Part shown: positions 25,090-57,400 of the stretch, piece after piece
How positions within the stretch are numbered: the stretch's first letter is position 1
Layout: each line of letters starts with the position of its first letter
From: a virus
Taxonomy: Duplodnaviria; Caudoviricetes
Length of the DNA stretch: 63,684 nt
IMG/VR virus record: IMGVR_UViG_3300038315_001014
Span: 1 to 63,684 of that record
Reading direction: 5' to 3' (one strand)
Made by a program: the position numbers and the translations under genes
Notes under the pieces: generated by a model
Databases searched by the model: none
What the model was told of the DNA's origin: nothing
What the model saw: the letters and a program-made list of their open reading frames with translations, nothing else

Positions 25090-25114
25090 CAGCATTTAAA
25101 CTCACCTAGTATCC

Positions 25115-26317: not shown

Positions 26318-26349
26318 ATGTTCTTGTGAGTGAGAAAGTTCGCTCGCAT

Positions 26350-26399: not shown

Positions 26400-26448
26400 T
26401 TACAAGCACTTAAATTTATCTCATGAGATAAATACAGGAGAACTACCT

Positions 26449-27400: not shown

Positions 27401-27442
27401 GTCGTGTATACAAACGCTGGCACGCCAGCAAGGAGAAGCATA

Positions 27443-27965: not shown

Positions 27966-28063
27966 GGCGAGGAGGAAGAGCGGAGTTTGTTCATTAACGT
28001 TCTCCTGTAAGAACTGGTATCACTGGTATCAAATTTATCTCATGAGATAAAGGAGGGGTAAGA

Positions 28064-28387: not shown

Positions 28388-28889
28388 AGCGTTAGTACGC
28401 GTAGTAAAGGAAGTATCTAAGAAGAAATATAAAGGGAATCTTGTACTCCGCGGGCCAGAACAACAAGGGAAGACTGCGATACTGCATGACACCATTGAAG
28501 ATTGTGAAACATCTGTTGAGGAATTAACAGCTGCGATAACCTTCACTCTCCGTGTAATAGATAGTCGTGGTATTGGAGCACATATCGCTGCATCGGGGCG
28601 AAGAAGTACGAGTCTATGCTGGCATGGGCATAGGGATGTAATGTGGGAACTGTTTCATAGGTTCCCTGAAGCGCGGTTAAAATCGCGGGATGCTGACTAT
28701 CATGGAGTAGCTGAATTTCTTTTAACATATGAAGAAACGGGAGAAGAAGCAATAGCACTTAATATTTACAATAAAATTGGTTGTCGTAAAGAGCAATGCA
28801 AATGTAATGATTTATCTCATGAGATAAAACAGGAGGATAACGGGCCTATAAAGATAAAGTGGAGGGAGACAGGAGGAAAATATGAGTGA
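28356..28889 (+). CDS. Hypothetical protein with a 19-codon insert copied from the HD gene
   Basis: AGGAGG RBS; CWHGH motif. Confidence 0.6.
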   Translation: MIMKLWGVSSEALVRVVKEVSKKKYKGNLVLRGPEQQGKTAILHDTIEDCETSVEELTAAITFTLRVIDSRGIGAHIAASGRRSTSLCWHGHRDVMWELFHRFPEARLKSRDADYHGVAEFLLTYEETGEEAIALNIYNKIGCRKEQCKCNDLSHEIKQEDNGPIKIKWRETGGKYE

Positions 28890-29475
28890 ACATGGCATTG
28901 AACATAAACGTAGTCAGAAGTTAATAGACCATGCCTACGCAGTTGCGAAGAAGGCACACGAAGGGCAGGAGAGAAAATATACAGGTGAACCCTATATCAC
29001 ACACCCAGTAGCCGTAGCTAACATCTGTGCTATGGTGACAGATGATGTGGATATTATCTGCGGTGCATTACTGCATGACACCATTGAAGATTGTGAAACA
29101 TCTGTTGAGGAATTAACAGCTGCGGGGTTAGGTTGGGGCATCATTGATGTAGTAGTAGGGATGACCGATATATCTAAACCAGAGGATGGCAATCGTGCTA
29201 CACGTAAGGCTAAGGATCGTGAATTCCTTGCACGGCAGAGACAACAAGTACACACGGTGAAGTTAGCCGATGTTTTGCACAACGGTAAGGATATTTCAGA
29301 GAACGATCCGAGGTTCGCGAAGGTCTACATGCGGGAGATATCTTTGCTTGTGCCATTCCTTAGTAAAGGGAACATCATACTACATGAAGCCGCAGTCCAT
29401 ATGCTGGAGGAGTATTGGAGCGGTGAACACAGAAACTTTCAACGTAAGTTAGATTTTTTAGAGCCAAAAAATTAA
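28882..29475 (+). CDS. HD-domain phosphohydrolase (RelA/SpoT-type small alarmone hydrolase-like)
   Basis: AH.GQ.RK..GEPYITHP, ALLHDTIED and VKLAD..HN. Confidence 0.85.
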   Translation: MSEHGIEHKRSQKLIDHAYAVAKKAHEGQERKYTGEPYITHPVAVANICAMVTDDVDIICGALLHDTIEDCETSVEELTAAGLGWGIIDVVVGMTDISKPEDGNRATRKAKDREFLARQRQQVHTVKLADVLHNGKDISENDPRFAKVYMREISLLVPFLSKGNIILHEAAVHMLEEYWSGEHRNFQRKLDFLEPKN

Positions 29476-29495
29476 GTAAAACAGGAGGACGAAGG

Positions 29496-29663
29496 ATGAC
29501 AATGCGAGAGTACATTAAGAAGCATAAGGATGAAATAGATCGCTACATAAGGAATGTGTTAGACATGCCCGACTTCAAGATCAACAATGAAGAGCGGGAA
29601 ATTTGGGTCCGAAATGACCTAGCACTGTATGAAGATGCAAAAACAGAAGGAGTAAAAGTATGA
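29496..29663 (+). CDS. Small hypothetical protein (55 aa)
   Basis: Manual translation MTMREYIKKH...IWVRND; AGGAGG RBS; ATGA overlap. Confidence 0.6.
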   Translation: MTMREYIKKHKDEIDRYIRNVLDMPDFKINNEEREIWVRNDLALYEDAKTEGVKV

Positions 29664-30559
29664 ATAACTTACTGCAAGAAGCACCACAGATCGAAGCAAT
29701 ATCTATTAGCAGTTCAGCTATGCTAACGGAGCATACCCAAGGGATATGGACAGGGCGTAAGAAAGATAAGAGAGCGTCTACCCAAGTGAACGACGACAAT
29801 AATGCTGACGCGGGTGTAGCGAACGTGTATAAAGCTCTTTTGGGATCATCCCCTGATCTCAAGGCGGTACAGAACTTTGCTCAAAATGCACGTAACTCGC
29901 ATTACAGTATGACCCTACCGTGGAGCGCAGGCTTCCAGCTCTTACCCGTCGCGCAATACTTCAGCTACCATAAACAGATGACTGCATTCCAAGTAGAGTT
30001 TTATCGGTTAGTTGACGTGTTCATGCAGGGGTATAAATGGGCAGTTGTACAAGCGGAGAGTAAACTCGGTGATCTGTTTAACCGAAATGAGTATCCAACC
30101 GAAGATGCAATCCGAAGTAAGTTTTACTTCAACGTGAACTATGTTCCGCTACCTGAAGCGGGGGATTTTAGACTGGATATTGGCAATGAAGAAAGAGCCG
30201 CATTGGAAACTCATTACAATGATTACTATTCCAAGCAACTCACGGGAGCTATGAACCATCTGTGGAATAAAGTTTATGACGTACTCACTAAGATGAGCGA
30301 GCGTCTTGACTACGGTGATGGGGAAGTAAAGAAAGTCTTTAGAGATTCTCTCGTTACTAACGTACTGGATGTAGTGGATCTACTTACTTTATGTAACGTA
30401 ACTGAGGATTCTCAATTGGAGCAGATGCGTATGGACTTAGAGGTTGCATTACGTGGTGTATCTGCAAGTGGCTTGCGTGAAGATGCGGGGCTACGTCGAA
30501 TGACTAAGCGTAGTGTAGATAAGATGATTGATAGCTTGCCAAGCTTGAAAATTTCATGA
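29660..30559 (+). CDS. DUF3150-like protein
   Basis: WTGRKKDK, TLPW, LGDLFN..EYP and FRDSLV; sits next to a MoxR/vWA pair. Confidence 0.6.
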   Translation: MNNLLQEAPQIEAISISSSAMLTEHTQGIWTGRKKDKRASTQVNDDNNADAGVANVYKALLGSSPDLKAVQNFAQNARNSHYSMTLPWSAGFQLLPVAQYFSYHKQMTAFQVEFYRLVDVFMQGYKWAVVQAESKLGDLFNRNEYPTEDAIRSKFYFNVNYVPLPEAGDFRLDIGNEERAALETHYNDYYSKQLTGAMNHLWNKVYDVLTKMSERLDYGDGEVKKVFRDSLVTNVLDVVDLLTLCNVTEDSQLEQMRMDLEVALRGVSASGLREDAGLRRMTKRSVDKMIDSLPSLKIS

Positions 30560-30577
30560 GATAAATACAGGAGAACG

Positions 30578-30673
30578 ATGATGACAGCAACAGCAATAGC
30601 AACAGCAACAGCAACAGCAACAACAGCAACAACTCAACGAGTAAAAGTACCAGCAAAGGAGAAAGCGTCATGA
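30578..30673 (+). CDS. 31-aa peptide encoded by an ACAGCA hexamer repeat
   Basis: CAGGAGAACG RBS; MMTATAIATATATATT...; ATGA overlap with the next ORF. Confidence 0.45.
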   Translation: MMTATAIATATATATTATTQRVKVPAKEKAS

Positions 30674-30951
30674 TGGCTAGGCTTCTTCTTGTAGCTGCGG
30701 TGGTTGCTATCTGTATAGGAGCTATTACCCAGGAAAGTATGGTACTCGCACTGGGTATACTTCTATCTATTTGGGCTGAGGTATGGGGCACACAGGAAAA
30801 ACTATGTTCAATAGAAGAACACTTGTGTGCAGATATATCAGCGTTAACTCTATCCCTGCGCATATGGGGGGATATAAAAAAAGAGGAGGCAGAACGTAAC
30901 TTTGAAAATGAGTTAGATTCACTAGAACCAAAACAGGAGAACGAAGTATGA
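30670..30951 (+). CDS. Hypothetical membrane protein
   Basis: Two hydrophobic segments. Confidence 0.55.
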   Translation: MMARLLLVAAVVAICIGAITQESMVLALGILLSIWAEVWGTQEKLCSIEEHLCADISALTLSLRIWGDIKKEEAERNFENELDSLEPKQENEV

Positions 30952-32045
30952 ATCAAGCACAAAAAATGTACGCTTTAAGTTTAGAACAAATTATGCAAGC
31001 TATCCTTATTGGGGGGACTGAACGGACGGTACTCGTTCAAGGGCATATGGGCACAGGTAAGAGCACTATACTGCCCATGTTAGGGGAAGAGCTGACTCTC
31101 CACACACAGTGTTATTTTGATGGCACTACCAAAGACCTTGGGGATGTTATGATCCCTAACATATCTGTGTTGGACGACAGCTCTAAAAAGTTTGTTACCT
31201 TTGCTACCAATGAAGAACTTGGTATGCACCTTAGCAAGCCAATTATCCTTATGATAGATGAGTATGGTAAGGCCCCTCGTCCTGTTCAAAATGCACTAAT
31301 GCGTCTGATGTTGGAACGTAAGATTGGTTCATATACGTTACATGAAGAAAGTATTGTATTCGCCAATACTAACTTAGCTGCGGAAGGCGTAGGTGATATG
31401 ATGCTCCCACACCAATGCGATAGGATTTCTATTATCACTTCTCGCAAGCCTGATAATAAAGAGTGGATCATATGGGGAGTACAGCATGACATAGACCCCA
31501 TTATGTTAAGTTGGTGTAAGGACAACCCACAGTTGTTCCATTCGTTTGAGGATGTTGAGAACCCTGAAGACAATCTGTATATCTTCCATCCTAAGAGACA
31601 ATCGCATGCGTTTGTTACCCCAAGATCCTTACATGCAGCATCTGACTGGATGAAGAAGCGGGGGCAGCTTGATGACCAAACACTTTGTGCTTTGTTGATG
31701 GGGACTATTGGGGATCGTGGAGCAATGGATCTTATGGCATACGTTAAGCTAGCGGATCAACTACCAACCACAGAAGCTATTAAGCAAGATCCTCACAATG
31801 CGCGGGTGCCTGACTCTGACGCTGCTGTATGTATGGTTGTTTATAGGGCGTTAGCGTCTATCGAGCGGGACTGGGTATCTCCGTGGGTGGATTACATGCG
31901 GCGATTGGATGCTGAAGCACAAGGACTGTTTGCTAATGGAGTACGCGCAGATGGGTATGATAAGAAGCAGTTCATTTATCAGAATAAGAAATTCGCTCAG
32001 TGGGCAATGGACAATGGCTATATGTTCAGCGCCGACAAAGCATAA
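30948..32045 (+). CDS. MoxR-like AAA+ ATPase
   Basis: Walker A GHMGTGKS, Walker B LMIDE, and TPRS sensor motif. Confidence 0.85.
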   Translation: MNQAQKMYALSLEQIMQAILIGGTERTVLVQGHMGTGKSTILPMLGEELTLHTQCYFDGTTKDLGDVMIPNISVLDDSSKKFVTFATNEELGMHLSKPIILMIDEYGKAPRPVQNALMRLMLERKIGSYTLHEESIVFANTNLAAEGVGDMMLPHQCDRISIITSRKPDNKEWIIWGVQHDIDPIMLSWCKDNPQLFHSFEDVENPEDNLYIFHPKRQSHAFVTPRSLHAASDWMKKRGQLDDQTLCALLMGTIGDRGAMDLMAYVKLADQLPTTEAIKQDPHNARVPDSDAAVCMVVYRALASIERDWVSPWVDYMRRLDAEAQGLFANGVRADGYDKKQFIYQNKKFAQWAMDNGYMFSADKA

Positions 32046-32082
32046 TTTATCTCATGAAATAAACGTGACCAAGGAGAAAGCA

Positions 32083-32340
32083 ATGGACGTAAATCCTAAA
32101 GATGTGATGCGTGGTAGATATATGACGTTGACGGAGGTAGTTGATATATTGCCCGTATCGAAGGCAACGATATACAGACAAATACGGTTAGGGAGGTTCC
32201 CCCGCCCTAGACGATTTGGGGCGGGGATGAGTATATGGATAACACAGGAGGTTATGGACTGTATAGATAACTTACCCGTATCAAATATGAAAAACCCAAG
32301 AATACGTAAACAGGAGAACGAAGATGTTAAGAATAAATAG
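32083..32340 (+). CDS. AlpA-family HTH regulator / excisionase-like
   Basis: LTEVVDILPVSKATIYRQIRLGRFPRP...W. Confidence 0.85.
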   Translation: MDVNPKDVMRGRYMTLTEVVDILPVSKATIYRQIRLGRFPRPRRFGAGMSIWITQEVMDCIDNLPVSNMKNPRIRKQENEDVKNK

Positions 32341-33760
32341 TGATTTAACAGCGGAGCAGCGGCTTACCAAAGCTGTTGTAGCAATAATGGGTAAAGATAG
32401 GTACGTAGCTTTATCGGGAATACTTATGATAGGGACACGTAACGTTGTCGATACCCCTGAAATAATAAAAATATTTGCAGGGAGGCCGGTGTTTACTGCT
32501 TGCACTAACGGACGTGATGAGAAGTACGGCAGAGAGTTTATCGAGTTGCTTACTGACGCAATGCTGCGGTATCTTGTACTGCATGAAAACTATCATAAAT
32601 TGTATAAGCACTTAGACACATGGAAAGTCCTCCATGATGAGAATCCGTATTTAGCGAATTGCTCTTGTGATTACGTTATTAACCTGAAAATTTCTAACGA
32701 TAATACAGATGGGTTTGCTGTTATGCCCGTAGATGAAAACGGTAAGCAGATGGGTTTGCTGGATACAAGATTTGAAGGTATGAACTCAGGTCAAGTGTTC
32801 AAAATCCTCAAAGAAGAAGCTGAAGACAACGAGGATGAGGATGGTGACGAAGGAGGTGGAAGTACAGGTGACGGCCCCCCACAAAATGGACAACCGGGGG
32901 GAGGTAAAGGCACATCTAATGGGGTGGGAAACAAAAATGCTACACCAGGTGATGGCGACGATGATGATGACACTGAAGGATCTTCTGAAGCTGGAACTGG
33001 AACTGGAACTGGAACTGGTGGGACTGGAACTGGTGGAACTGGTTTTGATGAACATGATTGGGACGGAGCTGAGTCATTAACAGAATCAGAAAAGCGGGCG
33101 CTTGATCGAGACATCGACGAAGGGATAAGGCAAGGTGCGTTGCTAGCAGGGAGTACAGGGTCTGGCAATGGAGAGAGGGAATTTGGGGATCTCCTAAAAG
33201 CGCAGATACCCTATCAAGAAGTATTGCGGGAATTCATGAACGAGAATTGCGTGGGTAATGATTTAGCTACATACCGTAGGCCCAACAGAAGGTTTATGTC
33301 CATAGTTGATCATGTGTATTTACCCAGCGCATATAGTGAGCGAATAGGCGATGTCTGTGTAGAGATCGACAACTCTGGATCTATTGGGGATGACGACTTG
33401 CGAGATTTTATGTCTGAGTTTAAGTTTATCTGCGATACGTTACGCCCCCACTGTGTTCGGGTTTTGTATTGGGATACTGAAGTAGTCCACACTGAAGTAT
33501 ATCGTGATGAGGAAGTAGCTCAATGTATTGAGACTACACGACCTCGTTACGGTGGGGGAACTGATGTTCGTTGTGTAGCGCAATACTTACAGGAGAAAAA
33601 TATAATTCCGCAGGTGCACATCGTATTTACTGATGGCTATCTGTATGGTGGGTGGGGGGACAAGTGGAATGCTCCGCTGCTTTGGGTTATCAAAGGCAAC
33701 CGAAAGGATATTCCAACAGTAGGTAAATATGTATATCTTAAAAATGAGGTGGGGTTATGA
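32324..33760 (+). CDS. DUF2201-like metallopeptidase plus vWA protein
   Basis: TACTNG, HENYH zinc motif, DYVIN, acidic Gly linker, MIDAS DNSGS, GGGTD and VFTDG. Confidence 0.85.
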   Translation: MLRINSDLTAEQRLTKAVVAIMGKDRYVALSGILMIGTRNVVDTPEIIKIFAGRPVFTACTNGRDEKYGREFIELLTDAMLRYLVLHENYHKLYKHLDTWKVLHDENPYLANCSCDYVINLKISNDNTDGFAVMPVDENGKQMGLLDTRFEGMNSGQVFKILKEEAEDNEDEDGDEGGGSTGDGPPQNGQPGGGKGTSNGVGNKNATPGDGDDDDDTEGSSEAGTGTGTGTGGTGTGGTGFDEHDWDGAESLTESEKRALDRDIDEGIRQGALLAGSTGSGNGEREFGDLLKAQIPYQEVLREFMNENCVGNDLATYRRPNRRFMSIVDHVYLPSAYSERIGDVCVEIDNSGSIGDDDLRDFMSEFKFICDTLRPHCVRVLYWDTEVVHTEVYRDEEVAQCIETTRPRYGGGTDVRCVAQYLQEKNIIPQVHIVFTDGYLYGGWGDKWNAPLLWVIKGNRKDIPTVGKYVYLKNEVGL

Positions 33761-33846
33761 GCATAGATGACGACATCTACGGTCTAATCCACAGCCAAAC
33801 GAGAAACTTTGGATGCAAGAGTAACGAAACTAGAGGAGGATAAACT

Positions 33847-34737
33847 ATGAACTATGAGCGGATACTAATATCTGATATGGATGTATTTAATGTAGATATC
33901 AATACGGACACAGGTACTGAAGCAGCGTTGCGCGTGTTTGCTAAGGCTATTCGGGAGCAACTACGTGGAGTTCGGTTTGCTAAGTATCGGTCCAGCGATA
34001 CCTACATGCTTTATGTGTACTATCCTGATGATGTATTTCCTTTAGGTGCAATAAGCTATAGCGACATGAAAATGAAGGGAGTACATCCTAGAACGTTTAA
34101 TGTAAGTTCTCGGGCAATTGTTAACAAGCGGTTTGATGATTGCAGGGAGCAGTATCATATGGTTATGTCAGGTAATATGGATAGGGCAGTAAAAAACGCA
34201 TTGAAGTATCTTAGGATGTACACGCTACCTGAAATGATGGGAACAGTAATAGCTGCCTTCTTACGTGCGGCTAGTAACTACACATATGTAATAAGGAGTG
34301 AACGAAATAAAGTTTTTAGTGAAGTTAACATGGATCTTTTTTCGCCTTCTACTCCGTTGCGGGGTGCACTCTTACGAGAAATGCAATTTATGCTGGACGA
34401 ACATAAGTTTTACGACTCCTCAGTAAAAGATGTTATAGCAAGAATGTTAGAAGTGTACGGGCGATGCGATCTTGAGGAACGTTTTGCTTCTGGATCGTTT
34501 TGGTTTGTTAGGGCAAAACAAGATGGCTCATTTGACACCATCTATAAGAAGGAAAGCGGTGATCCTAACGAGGAGCAAAAGGCATACGCTCCTGATACAG
34601 TTCCCGAAGTAATGGCGCATAGGCTAGCTATTTTAAGCATCAATAACTCCGAAACATATGTAGGTGGGATAGGCTACCGTTACTGTAACGACCTGTACTT
34701 TGTTTATGATAAGGAAGCACCGGAGAACATGAATTGA
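33847..34737 (+). CDS. Hypothetical protein
   Basis: 296-aa ORF with GAGGAGG RBS. Confidence 0.75.
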   Translation: MNYERILISDMDVFNVDINTDTGTEAALRVFAKAIREQLRGVRFAKYRSSDTYMLYVYYPDDVFPLGAISYSDMKMKGVHPRTFNVSSRAIVNKRFDDCREQYHMVMSGNMDRAVKNALKYLRMYTLPEMMGTVIAAFLRAASNYTYVIRSERNKVFSEVNMDLFSPSTPLRGALLREMQFMLDEHKFYDSSVKDVIARMLEVYGRCDLEERFASGSFWFVRAKQDGSFDTIYKKESGDPNEEQKAYAPDTVPEVMAHRLAILSINNSETYVGGIGYRYCNDLYFVYDKEAPENMN

Positions 34738-34834
34738 CGTTCGATGACCAACTAGGTGCGCCTATCGAAAAGGTTGTGAGATACGAACTGTATGCTTTCC
34801 AGAACACCAATGGTTCACAACAGAGGCATAGAAA

Positions 34835-35152
34835 ATGAATCGACAGCTTTCAAGCAAGATGCTAGGCGCTATCAAAGCAATCCGCGAAGACTTCACAACC
34901 GCTAACGAACATGAGCAAGAACGATGGGGCCATCCAATTTCGTCGATCTCTTGGGATGACGAGAAGTATGGAAACCGCAACACGATGAATGCTCTGTTGC
35001 GGAGAGGATTGATTGAAATTGTCAGGACCAATCACCACCACTTTGACCGAGCCAAAACATATAACTACGGCAGGAATACCAAGTACGTGGCAGCAAGCTA
35101 TACACAACACCACATTAGACCGACTACAGACCATCAAGGCGAATGGATATGA
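34835..35152 (+). CDS. Hypothetical protein
   Basis: GAGG RBS; TMNALLRRGLIE is wHTH-like. Confidence 0.5.
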   Translation: MNRQLSSKMLGAIKAIREDFTTANEHEQERWGHPISSISWDDEKYGNRNTMNALLRRGLIEIVRTNHHHFDRAKTYNYGRNTKYVAASYTQHHIRPTTDHQGEWI

Positions 35153-35188
35153 TGGCTAAAACGGCAGCAGACATCTGCAAAGCCAAGG

Positions 35189-35452
35189 TTGATGGTCGCA
35201 GATGCAGACAATGGGCAAAGGCTAACGGCTATTGTCATTCAACGATACTTTGACTCGCACTATGGCGCTCGATACGGCGATGAGGGTAGCCAATACCTGT
35301 CAGGTGGATCCGGTATCGATGACGCCTACAGACGCTATAACGGGCCTGTAAGGATTACTGCGCGGTCTTGGGTAGACTGGCAGTTAACTAAAGAATTGTT
35401 ACCACAAATACTTGACCGGCATTGTAGCGAACTATGCCATTACGATAACTAG
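35189..35452 (+). CDS. Hypothetical protein (start uncertain)
   Basis: ORF track only. Confidence 0.35.
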   Translation: MMVADADNGQRLTAIVIQRYFDSHYGARYGDEGSQYLSGGSGIDDAYRRYNGPVRITARSWVDWQLTKELLPQILDRHCSELCHYDN

Positions 35453-35536
35453 GAGACTACCACATATTGGAAGGGAACAAACATGACTAATATACACATT
35501 TAGGTACGTTTATACAACGTACCCAACAAGACTTGA

Positions 35537-35751
35537 GCTACCTAGAGTAGTATGGTAAGGTAGCATCGGCAAGAAAGGTAAACCCATATAACGATCATGG
35601 GGCTGAAGCTATTTCTCCCTAAATTCACTGATAGGGTGTGAATGCAATGCTCGTATGTCCTACTACGGTTACCCCAAAAACTTCATGGCCGTAGTAGGGG
35701 CAAGGTCGCGCTTCAGGGTAACTAAGAGCGACTAAATGCGAGCGACCCTGC
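35537..35751 (+). ncRNA. Candidate structured RNA or regulatory leader
   Basis: Three stems: 35537-35564, 35659-35698 and 35700-35751; no long ORF. Confidence 0.35.
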
Positions 35752-35867
35752 TTTATCTCATGAGATAAATTTTTGGAGAGCACTTTACTTCATTTATCTC
35801 ATGAGATAAATTTGATACCAGTGATACCAGTGATACCAGTGATACCAGTTCTTACAGGAGAACGTTA

Positions 35868-41905: not shown

Positions 41906-42151
41906 ATGAAGACTGAACTTATGGGAATGGTTCGGCTGAAGATATTGAGGGCTGGCAGCGTCGGTAAGCTCGCTGATACCACGTCTATAGACAGGGCGTA
42001 TCTGTCAAGGCTGGCACGAGGGCTGAAGGAGAATCCAAGCGAGAGAGTCTTGGACGAACTTGGGATTGAACGGGTATCGTACTATGTTTGGAAAGACCCA
42101 AAAGACGAACCCCAAACCGAAGAGGAATGCTGGCTTTTATTGGAGGACTAA
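41906..42151 (+). CDS. XRE/Cro-like HTH protein
   Basis: SVGKLADTTSIDRAYLSRLARG...PS..VL..LG. Confidence 0.75.
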   Translation: MKTELMGMVRLKILRAGSVGKLADTTSIDRAYLSRLARGLKENPSERVLDELGIERVSYYVWKDPKDEPQTEEECWLLLED

Positions 42152-42185
42152 AATGAGCGAGTTCTTCACGAATTGGAGTACTAAT

Positions 42186-42440
42186 ATGCCTTACGTAAAT
42201 AAACCTAGACCATATAAAAAGGAATACCAACAGCAGAAAGCAAGAGGGGAACACAAAAACCGGATGGAACGACAGCGTGCTAGACGCGATTACGATAAGC
42301 GCGGGGTCAACCGCAAAGGTAAAGATATTCACCACAACAAAGCTTTGAGCAAAGGTGGGTCTAACAAAGATGGCACAAGACTTCAAAGCCCAAGCAAAAA
42401 TAGAGCAAACAATACCCATAAAAAGAGGGAGCAAAGATGA
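42186..42440 (+). CDS. Small HNH endonuclease-like protein
   Basis: MPYVNKPRPYKKEY and KDIHH..ALSKGGSN...NRA.N. Confidence 0.75.
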   Translation: MPYVNKPRPYKKEYQQQKARGEHKNRMERQRARRDYDKRGVNRKGKDIHHNKALSKGGSNKDGTRLQSPSKNRANNTHKKREQR

Positions 42441-42649
42441 AAGATGCTAAAATTCTTGCGGCCATAAACAAGGAACATAAAGCAACGATGACCAGCGAAG
42501 GCTAGCTTTTATTGGGGGATTAAAATGAGCGAGTTCTTCACGAATTTGGAAACGATGGACAGTGTATTTTATGTAGGGTACACCCTCCTTATCGTACTAT
42601 GTGTGGTACTTATCGCTAATAGGGAAAAGTGTAAGAAGGAGGAAAAGTA

Positions 42650-42790
42650 ATGCCTTCAAGTACAGAAAAGCAACGCAAATTCATGGGTGCAGAGTTAGCC
42701 AGAAAACGTAAAGGCAAGAAAACAAAAACTAAAATGTCTGCAAAGCAACTAAGTGATTTCGCTAAGAAGAAAAAGAAGAAAACAAGATAA
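42650..42790 (+). CDS. Small very basic protein (46 aa, DUF3008-like)
   Basis: MPSSTEKQRKFMGAELARKRKG...MSAKQLSDFA; AGGAGG RBS. Confidence 0.65.
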   Translation: MPSSTEKQRKFMGAELARKRKGKKTKTKMSAKQLSDFAKKKKKKTR

Positions 42791-42791
42791 T

Positions 42792-42866
42792 TGCAGAGTG
42801 GAGAAGTGGTATCTAGTTGGACTCATAATCTGAAGGTCGAGGGTTCAAATCCCTCCTCTGCTACCA
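42792..42866 (+). tRNA. tRNA with CAT anticodon (Met/fMet-like)
   Basis: GCAGAG/CTCTGC acceptor with a 1:72 mismatch, CT-CAT-AA loop, GAGGG-TTCAAAT-CCCTC T arm and encoded CCA. Confidence 0.85.
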
Positions 42867-42918
42867 ATTTACCAGGAAAACCGTTGCCTGCTTAAAGTAC
42901 GGTACTAGGAGAACGACA

Positions 42919-43341
42919 ATGACTGAAATGGTTATAATTTCTGAAGAGCAAGCAACGGCACTTACATCGTTAGGTGTTACTGTAAAGAAATGTTATGCAA
43001 TCCCTAAAACTTTAGTGAGCATATTTAGTTCATTAGGGAAAGGGACCACACGAGCAACACCAAAAAGGAGGAAAGCAACAAAAGGCCCTAGCGTTAAAGC
43101 TATGAAGCTCGGTCTTAACGCTGAGAAGTTAGCTGAAAAAATATCAGAAGCTAGTATTACTGGACTAGCTGTAAAAACTATTGTGGGTGAAATGGACCCT
43201 AAGTATGTCTACCGCAGAGAAACTTTAACCACGATGTTAAAAAATGTAGGGCTTACTGGTGGGCGTTTGCATTGGCCCCTAACTGAGTTAGTACATAGAG
43301 GAATTCTTGTAGCTGCTCCACGGCATTCTGCTACGCGATGA
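42919..43341 (+). CDS. Basic hypothetical protein (possible wHTH C-terminus)
   Basis: AGGAGAACG RBS; LTELVHRGIL. Confidence 0.6.
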   Translation: MTEMVIISEEQATALTSLGVTVKKCYAIPKTLVSIFSSLGKGTTRATPKRRKATKGPSVKAMKLGLNAEKLAEKISEASITGLAVKTIVGEMDPKYVYRRETLTTMLKNVGLTGGRLHWPLTELVHRGILVAAPRHSATR

Positions 43342-43357
43342 CACTTAAGCTACTTTT

Positions 43358-43716
43358 GGTAGGTGGGGCGAGGCGTGGTGATGTAAGGTAAGGAACGGCT
43401 AGGTGTGGTAAGGCAGGTAAGGTTAGGTAAGGTTAGGTAAGTTCAGGTGGGGTGTGGTTGGGTAAGGCAGGTTTGGTATGGTTCGGTTTGGTGCGGTAGT
43501 ATGGGGTCGGGTATGGTCAGGTTGGGTAAGGCAGGTTTGGTATGGTTCAGTTTGGTGGGGTCAGGTGGGGTCGGGTATGGTCAGGTTGGGTAAGGCAGGT
43601 AAGGTTAGGTAAGTTCAGGTGGGGTCGGGCCGGGTACGGTCGGGTAAGTTGCGGCATGGTGAGGCAGGTAGGGTAGGGTAAGGTTAGGCGTGGTGATGTA
43701 TGGTGAGGTAAGGTTT
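43358..43716 (+). ncRNA. GGY-NN pentamer array with 6 units; putative multi-guide RNA
   Basis: 67 pentamers in strict 5-nt register. Units begin at GGTA (43358) and GGCA (43412, 43466, 43530, 43594, 43663). The repeat is certain; the RNA function is inferred. Confidence 0.75.
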
Positions 43717-43744
43717 TAATTTTAATTTTAATTTTAATTTTAAT
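43713..43744 (+). repeat. (TTTTAA)5 tract between the array and the RBS
   Basis: Seen directly; followed by CAGGAG RBS and ATG at 43757. Confidence 0.9.
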
Positions 43745-43756
43745 CAGGAGAGCAAC

Positions 43757-44386
43757 ATGAGTGTTCAAACAGAAAGTAATGTAGTTGTACTAAATAAACT
43801 AAATATTATAAAAGCACCAGTAATACTAATTGGTGATTCCCCTATTTTAATGCATAAGTGGTCAGACAAAGCAAAGAAAGAAATGCTTGATAAACAAATG
43901 GGGAAAAATACGAAGCAACGAGGGAAGAAAAATCCAGAGCAAGACTACAAAGAATCTATGCATAAATGTAGCGATGGACCTACAAAATATGGATTTCCCG
44001 CTAATGGAGTTAAGGCATGTGCCTGTCGTGGAGCTAAAGAAGTTGCTGGCCTTGATATGACTAAAGCACGCACCAGTTTTCATGTATTAGGAGAGTTAGT
44101 TCCTATTTATGGATCTCCAGAAATGCATGAGTCTATGGTACGAATTGCGCAAACAACTGACATTCGGTACCGTGGAATTTTTAATGAATGGGCAACTAGG
44201 TTTACTGTACGATTTAATGCTGACATCATTACATATGACCAGATTGTAAATATTTTTGAATATGGTGGTTTTGGTTGTGGCATAGGTGAGTGGCGACCAG
44301 CACGAAATGGTACTATGGGTATGTTTCATGTTGGTACTGAAGAAGAACTTACCTACTATATTAATAAGTATGGGGAGAAAGAATAA
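43757..44386 (+). CDS. Stand-alone Cas7/RAMP-like RNA-binding protein
   Basis: ILIGDSPILMH (beta1), YGFPANGVKAC (compare RAMP IPGSSLKG) and a C-terminal Gly-rich loop GGFGCGIGEWRPARNGTMGMF. Confidence 0.7.
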   Translation: MSVQTESNVVVLNKLNIIKAPVILIGDSPILMHKWSDKAKKEMLDKQMGKNTKQRGKKNPEQDYKESMHKCSDGPTKYGFPANGVKACACRGAKEVAGLDMTKARTSFHVLGELVPIYGSPEMHESMVRIAQTTDIRYRGIFNEWATRFTVRFNADIITYDQIVNIFEYGGFGCGIGEWRPARNGTMGMFHVGTEEELTYYINKYGEKE

Positions 44387-44847
44387 TGATTTATAAGTTT
44401 AAGAGTAGTACAAGGCCAACAGAAGAGTCTCAGCAGGTAGGTGAGACTCTTCTACAAATAAAAAAAGACCAGGATGTTTTACACGCATGTGAAGTTGTAG
44501 CACAAGCAAAAGAAAAAGATTCGGTACTACATAAATACTTTCAGTGGGACGATACTTTAGCAGCGGAGCAGCACCGACTTAACCAAGCAAGACACTTAAT
44601 TACCTCTGTAGAAATTGTTAGGGAAACTGGGGATAATCGTTCAATTACTATACCTGCGTATACACATTTACGTGTAGATAAACACGGGTACAGAGACACA
44701 GAAGAAGTGTATTCAGTTCAAGATCTACGTAGTTCTTTAGTTACGCAACTAAAAATAGACTGGGAAACACTAAAGAAAAAACATGATTCTGTACTACAAG
44801 AAATAGCTTCTTTTGAATCGTTTAACTCGGAAGTTACAAACCTATGA
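44386..44847 (+). CDS. Hypothetical partner protein of the RAMP-like gene
   Basis: TAATG coupling; SVLHKYFQWDD..AA.QHRL.QARHLI motif. Confidence 0.7.
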   Translation: MIYKFKSSTRPTEESQQVGETLLQIKKDQDVLHACEVVAQAKEKDSVLHKYFQWDDTLAAEQHRLNQARHLITSVEIVRETGDNRSITIPAYTHLRVDKHGYRDTEEVYSVQDLRSSLVTQLKIDWETLKKKHDSVLQEIASFESFNSEVTNL

Positions 44848-44893
44848 ACCTCATAACAGTGGATAGCCCTGAATATTGACAGTGAAGCGCCTT

Positions 44894-46429
44894 ATGGAAA
44901 TAATTCAAAATAAAGCACTACTAATCACGCTAAAAGACCCCCTACCTGTACTAAATGCCATACCAAAAAGTAAACAGGTAGGAGATAAAACACTTGTTTA
45001 CTGGGGCATAGATGAAGTACATAAGCTAAAGGAGCTTGGAGTAGACGCACCCTCTCCTATGGAACGAAAGTATCTTTGGACGCAGTGTATGATGACTCCC
45101 TTTGAACATCAAATCAAAACTGCTGCGTTCCTCACCCTATACAAACGCGCCTTCTGTTTTAACGAGCAAGGTACAGGGAAAACTGCCAGTGCAATATGGG
45201 CAAGCGATTATTTAATGAGCCTAGGAATTATTCATCGTGTACTAGTTATCTGCCCTTTGTCCATTATGGACACTGCATGGCGAGCAGAAATGTTTGACTG
45301 TGCTATGCACCGTACTGTAGATATAGCTTACGGCAGTGCAAAAAAACGTGCCACTATCATAGCAGGCAGTGCAGAGTACGTGATAATAAACTATGACGGA
45401 GTTAAGGTAGTTCATGATGAAATTAAGAAGGGGGGCTTCGATCTAATTATCGCTGACGAAGCGACTCACTATAAGAACGCAAATACTTCCCGTTGGAAGA
45501 AACTCCACAAGTTAATTACCGAAGATACTTGGGTATGGATGATGACAGGTACCCCAGCGGCGCAAAGTCCGTTGGATGCCTATGGGTTAGCTAAAATCAT
45601 TAACCCTACTGCTGTACCAAAGTGGTTCGGTTCGTTCCGTGACCTAGTAATGTTCAGGGTGAGTCAGTTTAGGTGGCTTCCGAAAGATAGCGCAACCACT
45701 ACGGTTCATCGTGTGCTGCAACCTGCTATCCGTTTTACAAAAGAAGAATGCTTAGACCTACCTGACATGGTTTACTTAACCCGCGATGTTGAGTTAACCC
45801 CACAACAGAAAAAATACTACGACGACCTAAAGAAACGAATGATCACAATAGCGGCAGGAGAGAGAATCACAGCTGTCAACGCAGCTAACATGATGAACAA
45901 ACTTCTGCAAATATCCTCCGGTGCAGTATACTCAGACGATAGTGAATCCATAGCATTTGACGTTTCGAACAGATATTCTGTTCTAAAAGAAGTCATTGAC
46001 GAGTCCAGTCACAAAGTGCTTATATTCGTTGCTTACCGGCATACAATACGAGTTGTAGCAGAAAAACTTAAAGCAGACAGTATCACAGGAGAAATAATAC
46101 AAGGCGATGTCTCAGTAACAGAACGCACTCGCATAATAAAAGCATTTCAGGAGAACCCAGACCCAAGAGTACTCATCCTTCAGCCCGCCGCCGCTGCCCA
46201 CGGTGTAACTCTCACAGCAGCAAATACTATAGTGTGGTGGAGTCCAATAAGTTCGTTAGAAACTTATTTACAGGCGAACGCTAGGGTCCACCGGGCAGGG
46301 CAGGTAAATAAGTGCAGCGTGATTCATCTACAAGGCTCTGCTATGGAACGTCACGTTTATGGACTATTGCGTAACAAAATAGACATCCATACAAAAATCA
46401 TTGAACTATACCAAGATTTGATAAAATAG
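44894..46429 (+). CDS. SNF2-family superfamily 2 helicase
   Basis: EQGTGKT, IINYD, ADEAT, MTGTP, HGVTLT and QANARVHRAGQ. Confidence 0.92.
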   Translation: MEIIQNKALLITLKDPLPVLNAIPKSKQVGDKTLVYWGIDEVHKLKELGVDAPSPMERKYLWTQCMMTPFEHQIKTAAFLTLYKRAFCFNEQGTGKTASAIWASDYLMSLGIIHRVLVICPLSIMDTAWRAEMFDCAMHRTVDIAYGSAKKRATIIAGSAEYVIINYDGVKVVHDEIKKGGFDLIIADEATHYKNANTSRWKKLHKLITEDTWVWMMTGTPAAQSPLDAYGLAKIINPTAVPKWFGSFRDLVMFRVSQFRWLPKDSATTTVHRVLQPAIRFTKEECLDLPDMVYLTRDVELTPQQKKYYDDLKKRMITIAAGERITAVNAANMMNKLLQISSGAVYSDDSESIAFDVSNRYSVLKEVIDESSHKVLIFVAYRHTIRVVAEKLKADSITGEIIQGDVSVTERTRIIKAFQENPDPRVLILQPAAAAHGVTLTAANTIVWWSPISSLETYLQANARVHRAGQVNKCSVIHLQGSAMERHVYGLLRNKIDIHTKIIELYQDLIK

Positions 46430-46442: not shown

Positions 46443-46504
46443 GCGAGAGTGGTGGAATGGCAGACACAACGGGTTTAAGACCCGTTGCTTTTAGGCATGA
46501 GGTT
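46443..46504 (+). pseudogene. Truncated tRNA-Leu(TAA), lacking most of the T arm and the 3' acceptor strand
   Basis: GTGGTGGAATGGCAGACAC D arm, ACGGG-TTTAAGA-CCCGT anticodon arm and a long variable arm. Confidence 0.7.
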
Positions 46505-46569
46505 GCGCCCAACGGAGGGAGTTAGGGATTTCAAACCCAAAACTGAGGGTTCAATTCCCTCCGCAACCA
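46501..46569 (+). tRNA. Atypical tRNA-like element, possible TCA anticodon
   Basis: GGTTGCG/CGCAACC acceptor and GAGGG-TTCAATT-CCCTC T arm; weak D and anticodon arms around TTTCAAA. Confidence 0.5.
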
Positions 46570-51401: not shown

Positions 51402-54400
51402 TTAGTCATCAAAAGCCCCCCACGTAGCATCAGCTTGTTCACTAGCATATCTCATCAATGGACTAAACTGCACTCCCCCTTCCATCTGAGAAGATGTTTT
51501 GTGGTGTCGCTTCATTGATCTGATAATTGTTGATAGCGGGATAAGCTCCCCCCCTATTCTAGACAGATGCCTTTCATTGAATTCTACTATCTCATCAAGT
51601 ATTTCCTGAAATTCAGCGTAGTCCATAAACCGATAGGCTACGTACAGGCGTTTTGTTAGCCTCTCACGCATAGTGGATATTGCGGTGCTGACCTTTTTCT
51701 TAGAGCGGTTCTTTTCTTGCTGGAACGTATACTGCGCCGGGGAGAAGCCCATCCCTTGCCAGAACATATCATTCGCATCTAGCCCATCTACAATAATGTC
51801 ACCTCTACGAGTGAGCGGAGCACCATCATGTATGTACCGAAAAGCTTTCATTACATTACGTAATGCTGTTGGGGCCATAGTTTCTAGGGCACGTTCAACT
51901 TCACGTGGGGTATTTGCTTCTAACAAGTCCTCACGCCCGCGATTGATCTCTGATACTACACTACCAAAAGGACCAGTAGCATACCGTGCTAACTGGTCCC
52001 CAAGGGTTAGATTTTCTGTAAAAGGATTTGTTCTATATAGCAGCCCCGACAAACCTACACGCTGTGCTACGTCTGCACCTGACCCGTAATTTATCACACC
52101 TTTATACAGGGGTTCCCCCATATGCAAACGTACTATGGTTTCGAAATCTTCCTCATCATCTTCAAGGAACATAAGATTAGCTAGCGCAGATACAATAGCG
52201 AAAAACGGAAGGCCCTGGACACCAGATAAAATTAACGTAGATCCCAAAACCCCTAAAAATTGCTTAGTAGCTTCGTGTCGGTTTTTTTCTCCAGCTATCT
52301 GTTGTTTAATTGCTGTCTTAGCTGTTCTAAGTAGGTAATGGTACATAGTAGCGCCAAAAGGTTTATACATAAGCGCAACTCTCAACGCTCCTTTACGTGC
52401 CGCACTTGCTACCAAATTACGATTAGTCCCGCCGTTATACTCCTCTGTTTTCTGTAGTGCCTCTAATGCAATCTCTTCATACTCTGCTTTTGTAAGTTCT
52501 TTCTTGGTTACGTACTCTACTCCGTTACGAACTTCTTTTACTGTTCTTCTCTTATCTATCTCTAGCATATAAGCAGACATCATGGTTATTTGGCGAGTGT
52601 ACTTTTCGAAATGATGGAACATAAACGCAGACCACTTACTAATTTTACTTGACCATCCCTCTCGCTTACCTGCCTCGCCCAAATCCATTGATTCAAAAGC
52701 TGCAGACTGTCCTAGCATCGCACGTTTAGCTGCAGCGTCTATCAAGATGAGTAACTTATATTCTGTCAAAATTTCAGTAGTAGTCTCCCCTAACTCTCTA
52801 AGTTCTTTCTCCCCAATAAGCGTACTCTTTGTAAAAACTTCTTCACGTAGCTCCTGCTCTCCCTTTTTGTTTACTACTACGTAATTCCCTATGTTTAGCG
52901 CTGCTTTAGAAAATACTGTGCTCTCATCACCGTAATCAGCCGCCAGTTTTATCTCTGTTCCCCACCCGCTATTGGCAAACACCTTGTTCGCTTTGTGTAT
53001 CATCTTAATAGCTTCTACATGTCCATACCTAGCAGCAAGGGCAGGATACACAATAAGCGCTAGCTGAGTCAGATTAACCATTGCTGAGGATGGGTTGAAT
53101 CCAATCGTCCATAAAAAAGCTATTCTAGTAGCTATTGTAGCCAACTGATCTTTCGGCGGTGATGCAGCAAAGTGGGCCTCACTTATCATCTGCTCAATTA
53201 ATTCTACGTTTTTGGTGTCGTTCTTTTCTAGCGCCTCTTTTAACTCCCCTTTTTTAACATCCGCTACCTTGTACAATTCCTCTGCATACTTAAGCTGCTC
53301 TACCTGAAAACGCATAGAATGAGCACGCTCCTCAAACACCTCAAATAGGTTCTCTTCAAATCCAAGAATATTCTTCCGCTTTTGTAGCCCCTTAACAAAG
53401 GAAGCTTCTGGTAAAAGATCAATGAATATCTCCATGATATCTGCTTTTACCATAGCCCTTGCAGTTTTAGCAGTTTTATCCTTCTCTGGATCAACATCAG
53501 GCGCGGCGTTATTCATTCTTGTAAATATCTGGTTAATGAAAGAGGCAGTGGGCGCGTCTCTGTACACCACAGACTTATTAACAATAGACCTATGCACTGC
53601 GCCTAAAAGATCTAACGCCTCATCTCTAGTAGTCGCTTTGTTTCCTTTATCTTCAAGTTTGCGGGTTATCTCAATCGCTGAGTACTTTTCCCTAAGCTCA
53701 GGACGTATAACATTCTGTATGAACGTCTCTCTAGCCTCTGGAGACTGGAGATGCTCTACTGCAAGTTCCCCGTTGAAATCAAAAGTAACTCTGTAATCTC
53801 CCTTCCTTGCAAGCGGTAAGTATCCGTCTATCTTATTCTTGAACAACATGCTCATCACTCTGTTCTTTACTTCTTTTGCCCCCTCTACATCGTCCCCCAT
53901 TACAAAATCTATCCGCTTGAAAACTACGTTCTTCATATCGTCGTATATGATTTCATATGCATCAATAATATGTTTCAGTGTCTTCTTTGCGCCGGGACCA
54001 GCTTTTGCCAACTCCTTCGTTAGTTCCCCATGTATTTTTAGTTTGGCCCCTTCATAAGCTGAAGCAGGTTTTGTTACGTCCACTTCGGCTAAAGTACCTT
54101 TGTTACCAACTTCAATTAACGTTTCTATTTGTGCTGCACTACGCTTTCTTAGCCACTCATTATTTTTTACTATCGACCCCGATACGCTATCATGCCCACT
54201 CCTTATCGCTGCGTTCATAAAGTGAATTAATTCTTCTCCCCTATTGGGATCTTTAAGCTTCGCGTCCTCTGCGAACTTAGCATCATTACGTACCCCTGCA
54301 GTAGCAAAGAAGCCTTTTTTAGCTAGCGTACTCAATTTTCTAAATGTCGTAGCCAGTCTTATTTTTTCCGTAAGTAGCCGCCCGCCTTTATCAAGTGCCT

Positions 54401-57400
54401 TAGTAAACCTTTTCCGTCCTTCGTAGTACGCATCGTATAACTCTACTGTAGTTGCAGCTGCATACAATTGTCCTGCGTCACGATACTGCGGTGCAGGGGA
54501 AAGCATAGCGTTAGTGAGGTCGTCCACTCTATCCAACACAGTGGGCTTTGTCTTAGGGGGCCTACCTACCAATCTACGCATACCGTTCATAACAATACGA
54601 GAAAACCATTCCAGCGCATTACGTACCGGACCTTTGGATAACGTTATAGATGCCAGTGCTTGTCTAAACTCTATGTTACTAGATGCTTCAGTCACAAACT
54701 CATGTACTGATTGCGACCCGTAATACGTCCCTAAATTATCCTTAACAGCTTCATACAAGGCAGTGAGCTGCTTAGCCTCCCTCGACTCCCCAGTAGCTAA
54801 ATCATGAGAAGTGAACGCATGCATCGTTTCGTGCATTAACACATGCGTATTAACCCCAAACTCAGCGTCAAGCTGTATCGTGTTCGTCTTAGGATCAAAT
54901 AGTCCAGCTACGTGCTCACCCCTCTCGTTAATAAGCTTATCCACCACCTCCAATTTTGTGTCAGTAAGTGTAGCAGCGAGCTTTTTAGCAAGAGTTCTTA
55001 GCCGCCCACTCATACTTGTATGGGCAATATTTGTTAGTGCACTTCCTAGATCCCCATTATGTACATACTGAGTAGTCAGGGGATGCAACGGATGATCAAG
55101 GGCAGAAACTTCACTCAATGTTAAGTTAAGTTGAACGTTATCCGAAATATCCTCAACTGTAGTCTCACCTATCCCTAACTCACTCTGAACATCCTGAACT
55201 GTAGTCTCCTTTATCCCCACTTCAACCTTATCACCAACGAAGATCTTCTCAAGCTCAGCTTCTTGCTCTTCTGCAGGCGCAGCTTCTTCCTGTGCCCCTC
55301 TCTTAGCGCGTACATCTGCTTTCTTTAGCTGCTTCTTCGCTAGTGCTGTACCCTTAGTTTCTGCTTTGGCTTTCTTCGCTTCAGCTTTGGCTTTCTTCGC
55401 CTCGGCTTTTGCTTCAGCCTCAGCTTTGGCTTCAGCCGTAGCTGCCCTCCTAGCTTTCGCTCTGGCTTTAGTTTCTGCTTTCTGCCTACTTAGAGCACCT
55501 CCTTCAATTGTACCAACAGTACTCTTCGCAAGTTCTATTTTTGTCTTCAATATTATTCGCGCCTCGGCAGATAAATTTTCTTTTATCCATTTTCTAGCTT
55601 GCTTAAGTTGTTCCTGTTTAAGCCCTTTATAAAAAGCTTGAACCTCAGCAGGATTCCCCTGGTTAAGTTCGTTTGCAACTTTAAATATAGAGTGGTAGCC
55701 TAGCAAAGATATATTATCTATCAGCCGAGGGAGCTTGCTAAATACTACCTGTGCACTTGAAGCATTTGTAGAAGTTTCCGATCTGTATCCTTTCTTAGTT
55801 TTGTTAGTAAGTAATGTTTTTTCTTTAGTGTTTAACAAAGCAAGTATTTTTACTTTATCACCTAAAGGCAAATCAATCTTCTTATTCTCTACCGCAAACA
55901 CCAACCCTTTAGTCTTTCGTAGCATGTCCATAATTTTTTTAGCTACGCCGCCAGCATGTTTTGTACCCCACATTGCTTGTATAAACGCATCTATTTCCGC
56001 ATGAGAAATGCGTCTGTCTTTAGCTTCTGCTCTCGCATTTACTTCCCTTACAAGCGCATCCAGTGCAGTATCCCCAGTAACTCCCTCAACTGCGGAAACT
56101 AACTCATTGTTCTTAAGCGCTGCAAATTTCTTCCTTGCTGCTTCTTGCTCCGCAGTCGTAGCTACTTGCTCAGGTGCAACAGTCGTAGCAGTCCTACTAC
56201 GCTCAGCTTCTTGTGCTCTATTCGCTGCGCGTACTCCAGCCCTACGTGCCTTCTCCTTCACTGCTTCTGCAAGAAACTTCTTTACATTCTCACGGTACTT
56301 TTTCTGCTTAGTCCTACTATAGTTAACATGCTCATCAAAATTTGCAGGCGTAACTCCCCACTCTGCTAAATCGTATGCATATTCTTGCGCACCCTTCATA
56401 CCTGGTGCTCTCAATAACGCAGTCTGTACTTCTCCTGCTACTACAGACGTAACTTTTGGTTTAGGCTTTACTTCTACTTTTGGTTTTATTCCTCGATCTA
56501 TAACTTCAACGCCCCCTCCATCTACTAGCGCTCTTACCTGCTCAATAGTACCATCCATCCCAGTGAGCCACTCTAAGACACGGGGGAAATTTTCTTTTGG
56601 TGTAGCGTTAATCTTCTCAGCGAGTTCCTTTTTTAGCTCGTTCGCTTTTGTTAATGCCCCTACCCTTGTTCTGGATTCAATTTTATTTTGTAGCGAAGTG
56701 TAGTCTGATCTAGTTTCAGATACTTCTACTTTACGTTTAGCAGCTTTCGCATGCTCTATACTTGCTCTAAGTTGGCCCAGCGTTTTTTGCAGTACTACGC
56801 TATTACTGCCTTCTGTGGGGTAAGCTCTAACTTTACTACTACCAACACTAACTAAGTTATACAATTTTTCTGATAAATCCTCTCTAAACTTTTGCCCTCT
56901 ACTAATATGTGTGTCCAAATAGTTCATTAAGTCTTCTGCAGGTATCGCTGCTTCTGCACGGTCTAATTCTGCCAACAGTCCATTTTGATTTTCATAATGG
57001 AACTGAGCTTTGTGTGACATTTTTGTTAGCTTTTTATCGCTAGTCGCCGTATATGAATCCAATTCAGGATCTTTTTTCTTCCTTACAGCTCCTCCCACTG
57101 CTGGCGCTTCAACAACCTCAATACCGCTTAAGATCTCTGCAATGTTGGCACCTTCACCTACAAGTTCGCCATCAGCGTCATGTCCTTCAACTGCTTCTCC
57201 ATCTGTTATTCTGTAATTTACTCCTTTGAACTCAATCTCCCCCTCAGCTTCTAGGTCACTTTGGGCTTCTTCAATTTCGTCCAACGTAGGAGCTGCTATC
57301 TCTTGCTTTCCTGTAAGTATCTTTTCGTCAGCTATAAACGCATCTGAAACTTCGGGTGGGGTTTTTTGCGCCTCTTTTTTACTGAAGTCAAGTTCCAGTT

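What the first reader, a model, noticed from the sequence alone, without database searches (positions are those of the whole stretch)
43358..44847. Candidate minimal RNA-guided system: GGY-NN array + lone Cas7/RAMP-like gene + partner gene
Seen: a 359-nt non-coding, strictly 5-nt-periodic array lies directly upstream of, and co-oriented with, a 209-aa protein bearing three RAMP-like motifs, followed by a translationally coupled 153-aa gene. There is no cas1/2/3/6 and no repeat-spacer array. Established: Cas7-family RAMPs polymerise on guide RNA with a fixed nucleotide step per subunit. Inference: each subunit binds one invariant GGY and displays the variable NN, so each unit is a guide carrying 20-26 informative nt as spaced dinucleotides that read a gapped target. 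With no linked nuclease, it may act by binding or silencing, for example against competing phages or host genes. From memory this resembles recently reported viral 'VIPR'-type loci, which I cannot verify here.
Basis: partly seen in the sequence, partly recalled or inferred. Interest (0 to 1): 0.97.

Follow-up and report, generated by a model that had tools for sequence, protein, structure and literature searches.

The report
Staggered-array VIPR locus in marine phage
This marine phage carries a real copy of VIPR, an RNA-guided DNA-silencing system described in 2026, in its untested back-to-back guide layout; it is a good new example of a known system, and its targets were not found.

Summary
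Confirmed as a VIPR locus (Yoon et al. 2026). The array (43358-43716) has six GGY-NN units of 10-13 repeats. It is not strictly 5-periodic: units end in a 4-nt GGCA step, the published 'staggered' layout, and 8 of 67 pentamers are not GGY. The 209-aa protein's family profile hits one PDB sequence, SUSP1 Vipr (E 3e-10), folds like Csm3/Cas7 and keeps the guanine-reading residues. Co-oriented arrays flank 51 of 60 homologous loci. The clade is separate from the tested type II systems, and its 153-aa partner is a winged-helix-like protein unrelated in sequence to Vap1. The likely mechanism is RNA-guided DNA binding with a 1-nt skip and silencing of a competing element; this is inferred, and no target beat chance. 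Extras: the cassette sits at a different site than in sister phages and ends in a 17-nt copy of the polymerase start. One contig in another sample lacks 1,338 nt including vipr, leaving a solo guide, as described for SUSP1 relatives. Verdict: new member of a known kind.

The parts
43358..43716 (+). Staggered GGY-NN vrRNA array, six units
   Evidence: GGCA 4-nt steps as in 41 of 41 distinct array-bearing homologous loci
43362..43415 (+). Unit 1, 10 repeats plus GGCA; kept whole in the deletion variant
43416..43469 (+). Unit 2, 10 repeats; shares a 5-pentamer block with unit 5; the deletion breakpoint lies at 43443
43470..43533 (+). Unit 3, 12 repeats; near-duplicate of unit 4
43534..43597 (+). 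Unit 4, 12 repeats
43598..43666 (+). Unit 5, 13 repeats
43667..43716 (+). Unit 6, 10 repeats, running into the A/T tract
43714..43744 (+). Five-copy TTTTAA tract between array and vipr; role unknown (candidate cleavage site or translation enhancer, inference)
   Evidence: a four-copy tract at the same place in L002 and in none of the other 59 loci
43757..44386 (+). vipr, 209-aa Cas7/Csm3-like RAMP
   Evidence: dN/dS 0.23 vs sister phage
44386..44847 (+). vap-like accessory gene, 153 aa, winged-helix-like N-terminal domain plus C-terminal helices
   Evidence: dN/dS 0.09
44844..44860 (+). 17-nt exact copy of the DNA polymerase gene start (38327), at the cassette's 3' end
   Evidence: vap abuts pol in L076/L077
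42792..43341 (+). tRNA-Met and a 140-aa ORF that lie inside the same inserted block; not shown to be part of VIPR

Best explanation
A phage-borne VIPR system of the staggered-array clade. The array is transcribed with or just ahead of vipr (inferred) and is cut at the GGCA steps into about 50-69-nt guides without a structured tail (inferred; staggered processing was not tested in the papers I read). Vipr polymerises one subunit per pentamer, buries GGY and presents NN, which pairs with double-stranded DNA skipping every third target base (shown for SUSP1 and P. fulva; carried over by homology). With no nuclease in the cassette, the bound filament blocks transcription of a competing phage or satellite, helped by the winged-helix-like Vap (inferred).
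For: Homology to SUSP1 Vipr: only PDB hit, E 3.3e-10; hhalign probability 97% over 63 columns to a near-identical SUSP1-like protein. SUSP1 residues H17, K82, R138, C173, D177, W178, R179 named in the structure paper align with H33, K94, R139, C174, E178, W179, R180. AlphaFold2 pLDDT 93; top Foldseek rows are Csm complex, Cas7-11 and other RAMP chains, best E 5e-6. Arrays on the gene's strand in 51 of 60 loci, none on the other strand; none in 16 more distant relatives of this phage that lack vipr in the DNA held. GGCA makes 178 of 228 four-nt steps, and 134 of 170 unit lengths are 4+5n. Vap homologue in 50 of 60 loci. Purifying selection on both genes. No self-match of 80% or more under skip 0-3 except one 16/20 at skip 2.
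Against: No target found. Best skip-1 matches were 19/20 (unit 1 once, unit 2 twice, unit 6 once), 21/24 and 21/26, all within chance for collections this size. Among 80 guides of this clade scanned on 0.6 Mb of fetched DNA, skips 0-3 scored alike. This clade is far from the tested type II clade, its Vap is a different family and its guides lack the pseudoknot tail from whose end R-loop formation starts in SUSP1. The N-terminal half aligns poorly to SUSP1, so K33, E71 and M72 have no clear match. No sigma-70-like promoter upstream of the array. TM-scores to Csm3/Cas7 chains are only 0.34-0.53.
Confidence: 0.85

Rival explanations
1. A VIPR locus in decline in this lineage: the genes are intact, but the guides are being scrambled by internal duplication and the cassette is being lost, so it silences little or nothing now.
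For: Units share copied blocks, including the non-canonical pentamers, beyond shuffles (0 of 2000); this was significant at P<0.05 in only 1 of 21 arrays tested, this one. One contig of run X5 lacks vipr and most of the array. No targets found.
Against: dN/dS 0.23 and 0.09 against the sister phage, which reflects the long term rather than the present. Key residues kept. Run X3 of another study holds 42400-43531, 43502-43595 and 43752-45400 with no differences.
Confidence: 0.08
2. Same machinery, but the guides aim at host genes or host regulatory DNA, making it a host-takeover regulator rather than an inter-virus weapon.
For: No viral target in six seeded scans of viral contigs. Solo vrRNAs aimed at host repeats are published for satellites. 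The host is unknown, so it was not searched directly.
Against: Two scans of genome contigs gave 0 hits and one 21/26 hit in an unrelated-looking locus. Published natural targets are mostly phages and satellites.
Confidence: 0.05
3. Not a guide array: a G-rich simple repeat lying by chance beside an orphan Cas7-like protein, for example a type IV CRISPR remnant or a crRNA sponge.
For: Fold similarity to Csm3/Cas7; 9 of 60 homologous loci showed no array at my threshold.
Against: 51 of 60 loci carry a co-oriented array with the same punctuation; direct homology to SUSP1 Vipr; no PADLOC or NCBIfam Cas model matches.
Confidence: 0.02

Closest known systems
VIPR systems with staggered vrRNA arrays (bioRxiv 10.64898/2026.04.26.720920, text and fig. 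S18 legend)
   Same: vipr plus one accessory gene, GGY/NN repeats of 9-16 units, units overlapping by one base, phage-borne.
   Different: Nothing tested differs. The type number (I-VII) could not be assigned because figures and data files are not held. Staggered arrays were not among the layouts confirmed by sequencing in that paper.
Type II VIPR of phage SUSP1 and P. fulva prophage (PDB 36PP)
   Same: Homologous Vipr with the same G-loop and thumb residues; two-gene operon; GGY/NN code; no nuclease.
   Different: Separate clade (100/100 support, long branches); about 25% identity. SUSP1-like and LESphi2 guides are spaced and tailed with no GGCA step; the Vap here does not match Vap1 (E 0.01-0.1 on single comparisons) but matches the Gordonia, Mycobacterium and cyanophage partners at E 1e-34 or better.
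VIPR-null, solo-vrRNA SUSP1 relatives (bioRxiv 10.64898/2026.10.15.759431)
   Same: Deletion of vipr-vap leaving a guide behind: 1,114 bp there, 1,338 nt here.
   Different: Here one contig of one run, an unrelated phage, a breakpoint inside the array, and no target known for the remaining guide.
Class 1 CRISPR backbone RAMPs (Csm3, Cas7)
   Same: RRM fold with thumb and glycine-rich loop; polymerise on a guide RNA.
   Different: About 7-14% identity; no repeat-spacer array or adaptation genes; CRISPR uses contiguous pairing with a 6-nt step.

Membership tests
VIPR | Vipr-family RAMP protein with RRM core, thumb and G-loop | tested here: met
VIPR | Adjacent co-oriented array of 9-16 GGY/NN repeats per unit | tested here: met
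   10-13 repeats per unit, 59 of 67 GGY; 51 of 60 homologous loci
VIPR | Minimal locus: vipr plus one vap, no CRISPR array or adaptation genes | tested here: met
VIPR | Viral or proviral location | tested here: met
   terminase, portal, capsid, tail fibre, polymerase genes; virus record
VIPR | Array is expressed as small RNAs bound by Vipr | not testable with these tools
   needs small-RNA sequencing and pull-down
VIPR | 1-nt-skip recognition of natural DNA targets | tested here: inconclusive
   no match above chance; collection scans are exact-match only and other skips were not scanned at that scale
VIPR | No self-targeting at 80% NN match or more under the 1-nt skip | tested here: met
   best skip-1 self matches 14-15/20, 16/24, 18/26
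VIPR staggered-array layout | Units overlap by one base (4+5n spacing) | tested here: met
   five GGCA steps; 178 of 228 steps clade-wide; definition read from the fig. S18 legend only
VIPR type II | Vipr in the SUSP1/P. fulva clade, Vap1 partner, spaced guides with a structured 3' tail | tested here: not met
   LESphi2 is my stand-in for the Pseudomonas branch, P. fulva itself was not fetched
VIPR types III-V | Vap is a predicted nuclease or helicase | tested here: inconclusive
   Vap model resembles winged-helix domains at Z 5.7 or less; no nuclease row near the top; the helicase downstream is a core gene also in VIPR-less relatives
Class 1 CRISPR-Cas | Repeat-spacer array and cas1/2, cas5, cas6 or a large subunit | tested here: not met

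The most novel reading that the evidence does not exclude
The tail-less staggered clade works differently from type II. Its own winged-helix-like Vap (invariant H49, W54, A59, R64) reads or cuts the GGCA step and caps each guide in place of the pseudoknot. New guides arise by block copying inside the array, as between units 2 and 5 and units 3 and 4, giving guide turnover with no Cas1-like enzyme. Wild-type and vipr-deleted forms of one marine phage would then be a natural defender-and-cheater pair in which the solo guide borrows a co-infecting phage's Vipr.
Probability: 0.15. Interest if true: 0.7.

Novelty: new member of a known kind. Interest (0 to 1): 0.36.

Why it matters
VIPR is proposed as an ancestor of Class 1 CRISPR and as a very small programmable DNA binder. 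This locus does not add a new system. It is a clean, compact example of the staggered layout, whose processing and skip rule were not tested in the papers I read. The same Vipr clade, Vap family and GGCA punctuation occur in cultured Gordonia and Mycobacterium smegmatis phages, so the open questions can be tested in laboratory strains. The relocation scar and the deletion contig suggest that gain, movement and loss of vipr-vap with a guide left behind is not limited to SUSP1 relatives.

Tried and rejected
Target searches, all with the 1-nt skip. Units 3/4 full pattern: 0 in viral contigs, 0 in genome contigs. Their 20 shared bases in metagenome contigs: 1 hit, 21/24 and 20/24, in a sugar-epimerase-like ORF, failing at the two variable dinucleotides, skip not at wobble; rejected as chance. 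Units 3/4 3' seed: 2 hits, 17-18/24. Unit 5: 14 viral hits, best 20/26; 1 genome hit, 21/26. Unit 1: 54 hits in 8 families, best 19/20, in frame in a low-GC phage gene; the other guides reached at most 16/20 and 19/26 on that 26-kb contig. Unit 2: 25 hits, 20 families, two at 19/20; unit 6: 43 hits, 26 families, one at 19/20. About 3 matches of 19/20 are expected per guide in 6e10 positions, a size I estimated from the seed counts. Guides against vipr loci and phage relatives: at most 16/20, 18/24, 18/26. The best self-matches of units 2 and 3 fall in vipr (15/20, 16/24) but are off the wobble frame; rejected. Skip test on 80 clade guides: no difference between skips; 13-14 of 80 reach 80% under any skip, so that cut-off alone means little. 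Block copying as a clade-wide rule: not supported (1 of 21). No RNA holder listed. Vipr-Vap complex prediction: no verdict. Array RNA folds no better than shuffles (z +1.96); Rfam found only tRNAs. Pfam, PADLOC and NCBIfam name neither protein. Foldseek on Vap: no match at E 0.001 or better. A search of 301 genomes of one unrelated phylum for this clade, meant to test the skip rule elsewhere, found none. Host not identified; nearest named polymerases are about 34% identical. A 12-bp inverted repeat at 44421-44453 is not kept in L002.

Full report
Observation. The window is a whole 63,684-nt virus record with terminase, portal, capsid, tail fibre, polymerase, helicase and primase genes. The stretch was found in marine metagenome runs of several studies. 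At 43358-43716 lies a G-rich array: 50 GGY motifs are followed by another 5 nt on, against 4.5 on average and 12 at most in 2000 shuffles, and nothing like it occurs elsewhere in the window. The period breaks at a leading GGTA and five GGCA steps of 4 nt, giving six units of 10, 10, 12, 12, 13 and 10 repeats; 59 of 67 pentamers are GGY. A TTTTAA tract and a ribosome-binding-like site lead to a 209-aa ORF and an overlapping 153-aa ORF.

The 209-aa protein. Pfam, PADLOC and NCBIfam give nothing; PHROGs gives an unnamed family. A search found 379 relatives among 418 candidates; 110 of the 120 listed were aligned. That profile matches one PDB sequence, SUSP1 Vipr, at E 3.3e-10. The AlphaFold2 model (pLDDT 93) matches Csm-complex, Cas7-11 and other RAMP chains by Foldseek, with modest TM-scores. 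Using phage tootiki's protein, nearly identical to SUSP1 Vipr, the residues that the structure paper names for reading G1, G2 and Y3 and for clamping the non-target strand (H17, R138, D177, W178, R179, C173, K82) align with H33, R139, E178, W179, R180, C174 and K94. K33, E71 and M72 have no clear counterpart.

Array-gene linkage. Of 60 viral loci with a homologue, 51 carry an array on the gene's strand and none on the other; these include near-duplicates, 41 loci being distinct. All 41 have 4-nt steps, 178 of 228 being GGCA, and 134 of 170 unit lengths are 4+5n. This fits the 'staggered' arrays whose units overlap by one base (fig. S18 legend), a layout the paper did not confirm by sequencing. 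A homologue of the partner gene is in 50 of 60 loci.

Which VIPR. In a tree of 34 proteins the SUSP1-like and LESphi2 proteins form their own branch (100/100), apart from this protein and its Gordonia, Mycobacterium and cyanophage relatives; long branches make the depth unsure. The first group has spaced, tailed guides and mutually similar partners; the second has GGCA-punctuated arrays and this Vap family. The Vap model (pLDDT 90) resembles winged-helix domains over residues 7-111 at Z 5.7 or less, a weak level. So this is not type II; the type number cannot be set from the text.

Targets. None found. Exact and seeded skip-1 scans of viral, metagenome and genome collections gave at best 19/20, 21/24 and 21/26, in line with chance. 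Exact seeds miss targets with a mismatch inside the seed, and the host is unknown, so this is inconclusive rather than negative. A skip 0-3 comparison on 80 clade guides over 0.6 Mb showed no preference.

History of the cassette. In two sister phage contigs (helicase 93% identical) vap directly abuts the polymerase gene, and nothing lies before the helicase; in the window the block tRNA-Met, 140-aa ORF, array, vipr, vap sits before the helicase. It ends in a 17-nt exact copy of the window's own polymerase start, which I read as a scar of relocation (inference). Sixteen more distant relatives show no vipr or array in the DNA held; five of them span from the endonuclease through polymerase to helicase. 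Against the sister phage, dN/dS is 0.23 for vipr and 0.09 for vap, with synonymous distance like core genes. vipr and vap are 37% GC against 43-44% for core genes, and the Y position is T in 60 of 67 repeats against mostly C in the clade. Units 2/5 and 3/4 share five-pentamer blocks, beyond 2000 shuffles, but this was significant in only 1 of 21 arrays. In run X5, a different sample of the same study as the possible source, one contig of depth 7.8 joins 43443 to 44782 over a 2-nt microhomology, removing 1,338 nt: half of unit 2, units 3-6, vipr and most of vap. It is a single contig and unconfirmed by reads. It parallels the 1,114-bp vipr-vap1 loss in 97 SUSP1 relatives. Run X3, from another study, matches the covered parts with no differences.

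Mechanism. Shown here: anatomy, homology, conserved residues, linkage, punctuation, selection. Taken from type II work: one subunit per repeat, 1-nt skip, triplex, silencing. Inferred: transcription of the array, cutting at GGCA, the role of Vap, and a competing element as target. I put 0.85 on this reading, with membership in VIPR itself near 0.97.

Papers seen. 10.64898/2026.04.26.720920: whole text with supplementary methods and legends, plus passages of PMC13142463 and its supplement PDF; figures, tables and data S1-S4 not seen, and they hold the type definitions. 10.64898/2026.04.26.720927: parts 1-2 of 6. 10.64898/2026.10.15.759431: parts 1 and 3 of 8 and passages. 10.64898/2026.10.21.760802: passages. 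Three searches listed no paper testing staggered-array processing; subscription journals are not covered.

Verdict. Real, correctly interpreted, and already described as a kind: a new member of VIPR in its staggered, untested clade, with a relocation scar and a probable natural deletion form. Interest 0.36.

Noticed in passing
window 23767-35810: A palindrome centred on TCTCATGAGA (TTATCTCATGAGATAA) occurs at least 10 times in the small-ORF region, some copies ahead of ribosome-binding-like sites; likely a phage operator or promoter.
   Followed up: no
window 43443/44782, run X5: Deletion contig removing vipr and leaving unit 1 plus five repeats of unit 2.
   Followed up: partly
window 24782 and 45074: A 29-nt exact copy of part of the helicase gene lies at 24782, near a 41-nt three-copy tandem repeat at 25214-25345 and an 18-nt one at 24488; unexplained.
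   Followed up: no
window 42135-42184 and 42497-42546: Duplicated gene-end and gene-start segment around the 42186 ORF, also in runs X3 and X5; this region holds several small ORFs absent from the sister phages.
   Followed up: no
window 46443-46565: Second tRNA-like hit (Rfam 31.8 bits over 123 nt) not called by ARAGORN; possibly one or two degenerate tRNAs.
   Followed up: no
window 44876-44904: Near-consensus sigma-70 site (11 of 12) overlapping the helicase start at the cassette's right junction; chance not excluded.
   Followed up: no
window 42919-43341: 140-aa ORF with no family, no homologue in any fetched locus and a possible C-terminal helix-turn-helix.
   Followed up: partly
L225 2135-2445, L226 1002-1347, L227 2144-2325: Staggered arrays in cultured phages UmaThurman and Donkeykong and in Cy-LDV1; in the first two the array is annotated as hypothetical protein-coding genes.
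   Followed up: partly
window 51402-58907, 16528-16914: 2501-aa DarB-like internal virion protein and a GroES-like co-chaperonin.
   Followed up: no
window 1-126 and 63517-63676; 63080-63519: The same repeat-rich gene is split across both ends, consistent with a circular contig opened inside it; a long Gly-Thr-type repeat lies next to it.
   Followed up: no
L001 1-62: The start of this contig is an inverted copy of the vipr start, probably an assembly artefact, which explains its missing array.
   Followed up: yes
L001-L060 arrays: NN dinucleotides are A/T-rich (AA, AT, GA most common; CC, CT, CG rarest) even in GC-rich phages.
   Followed up: no
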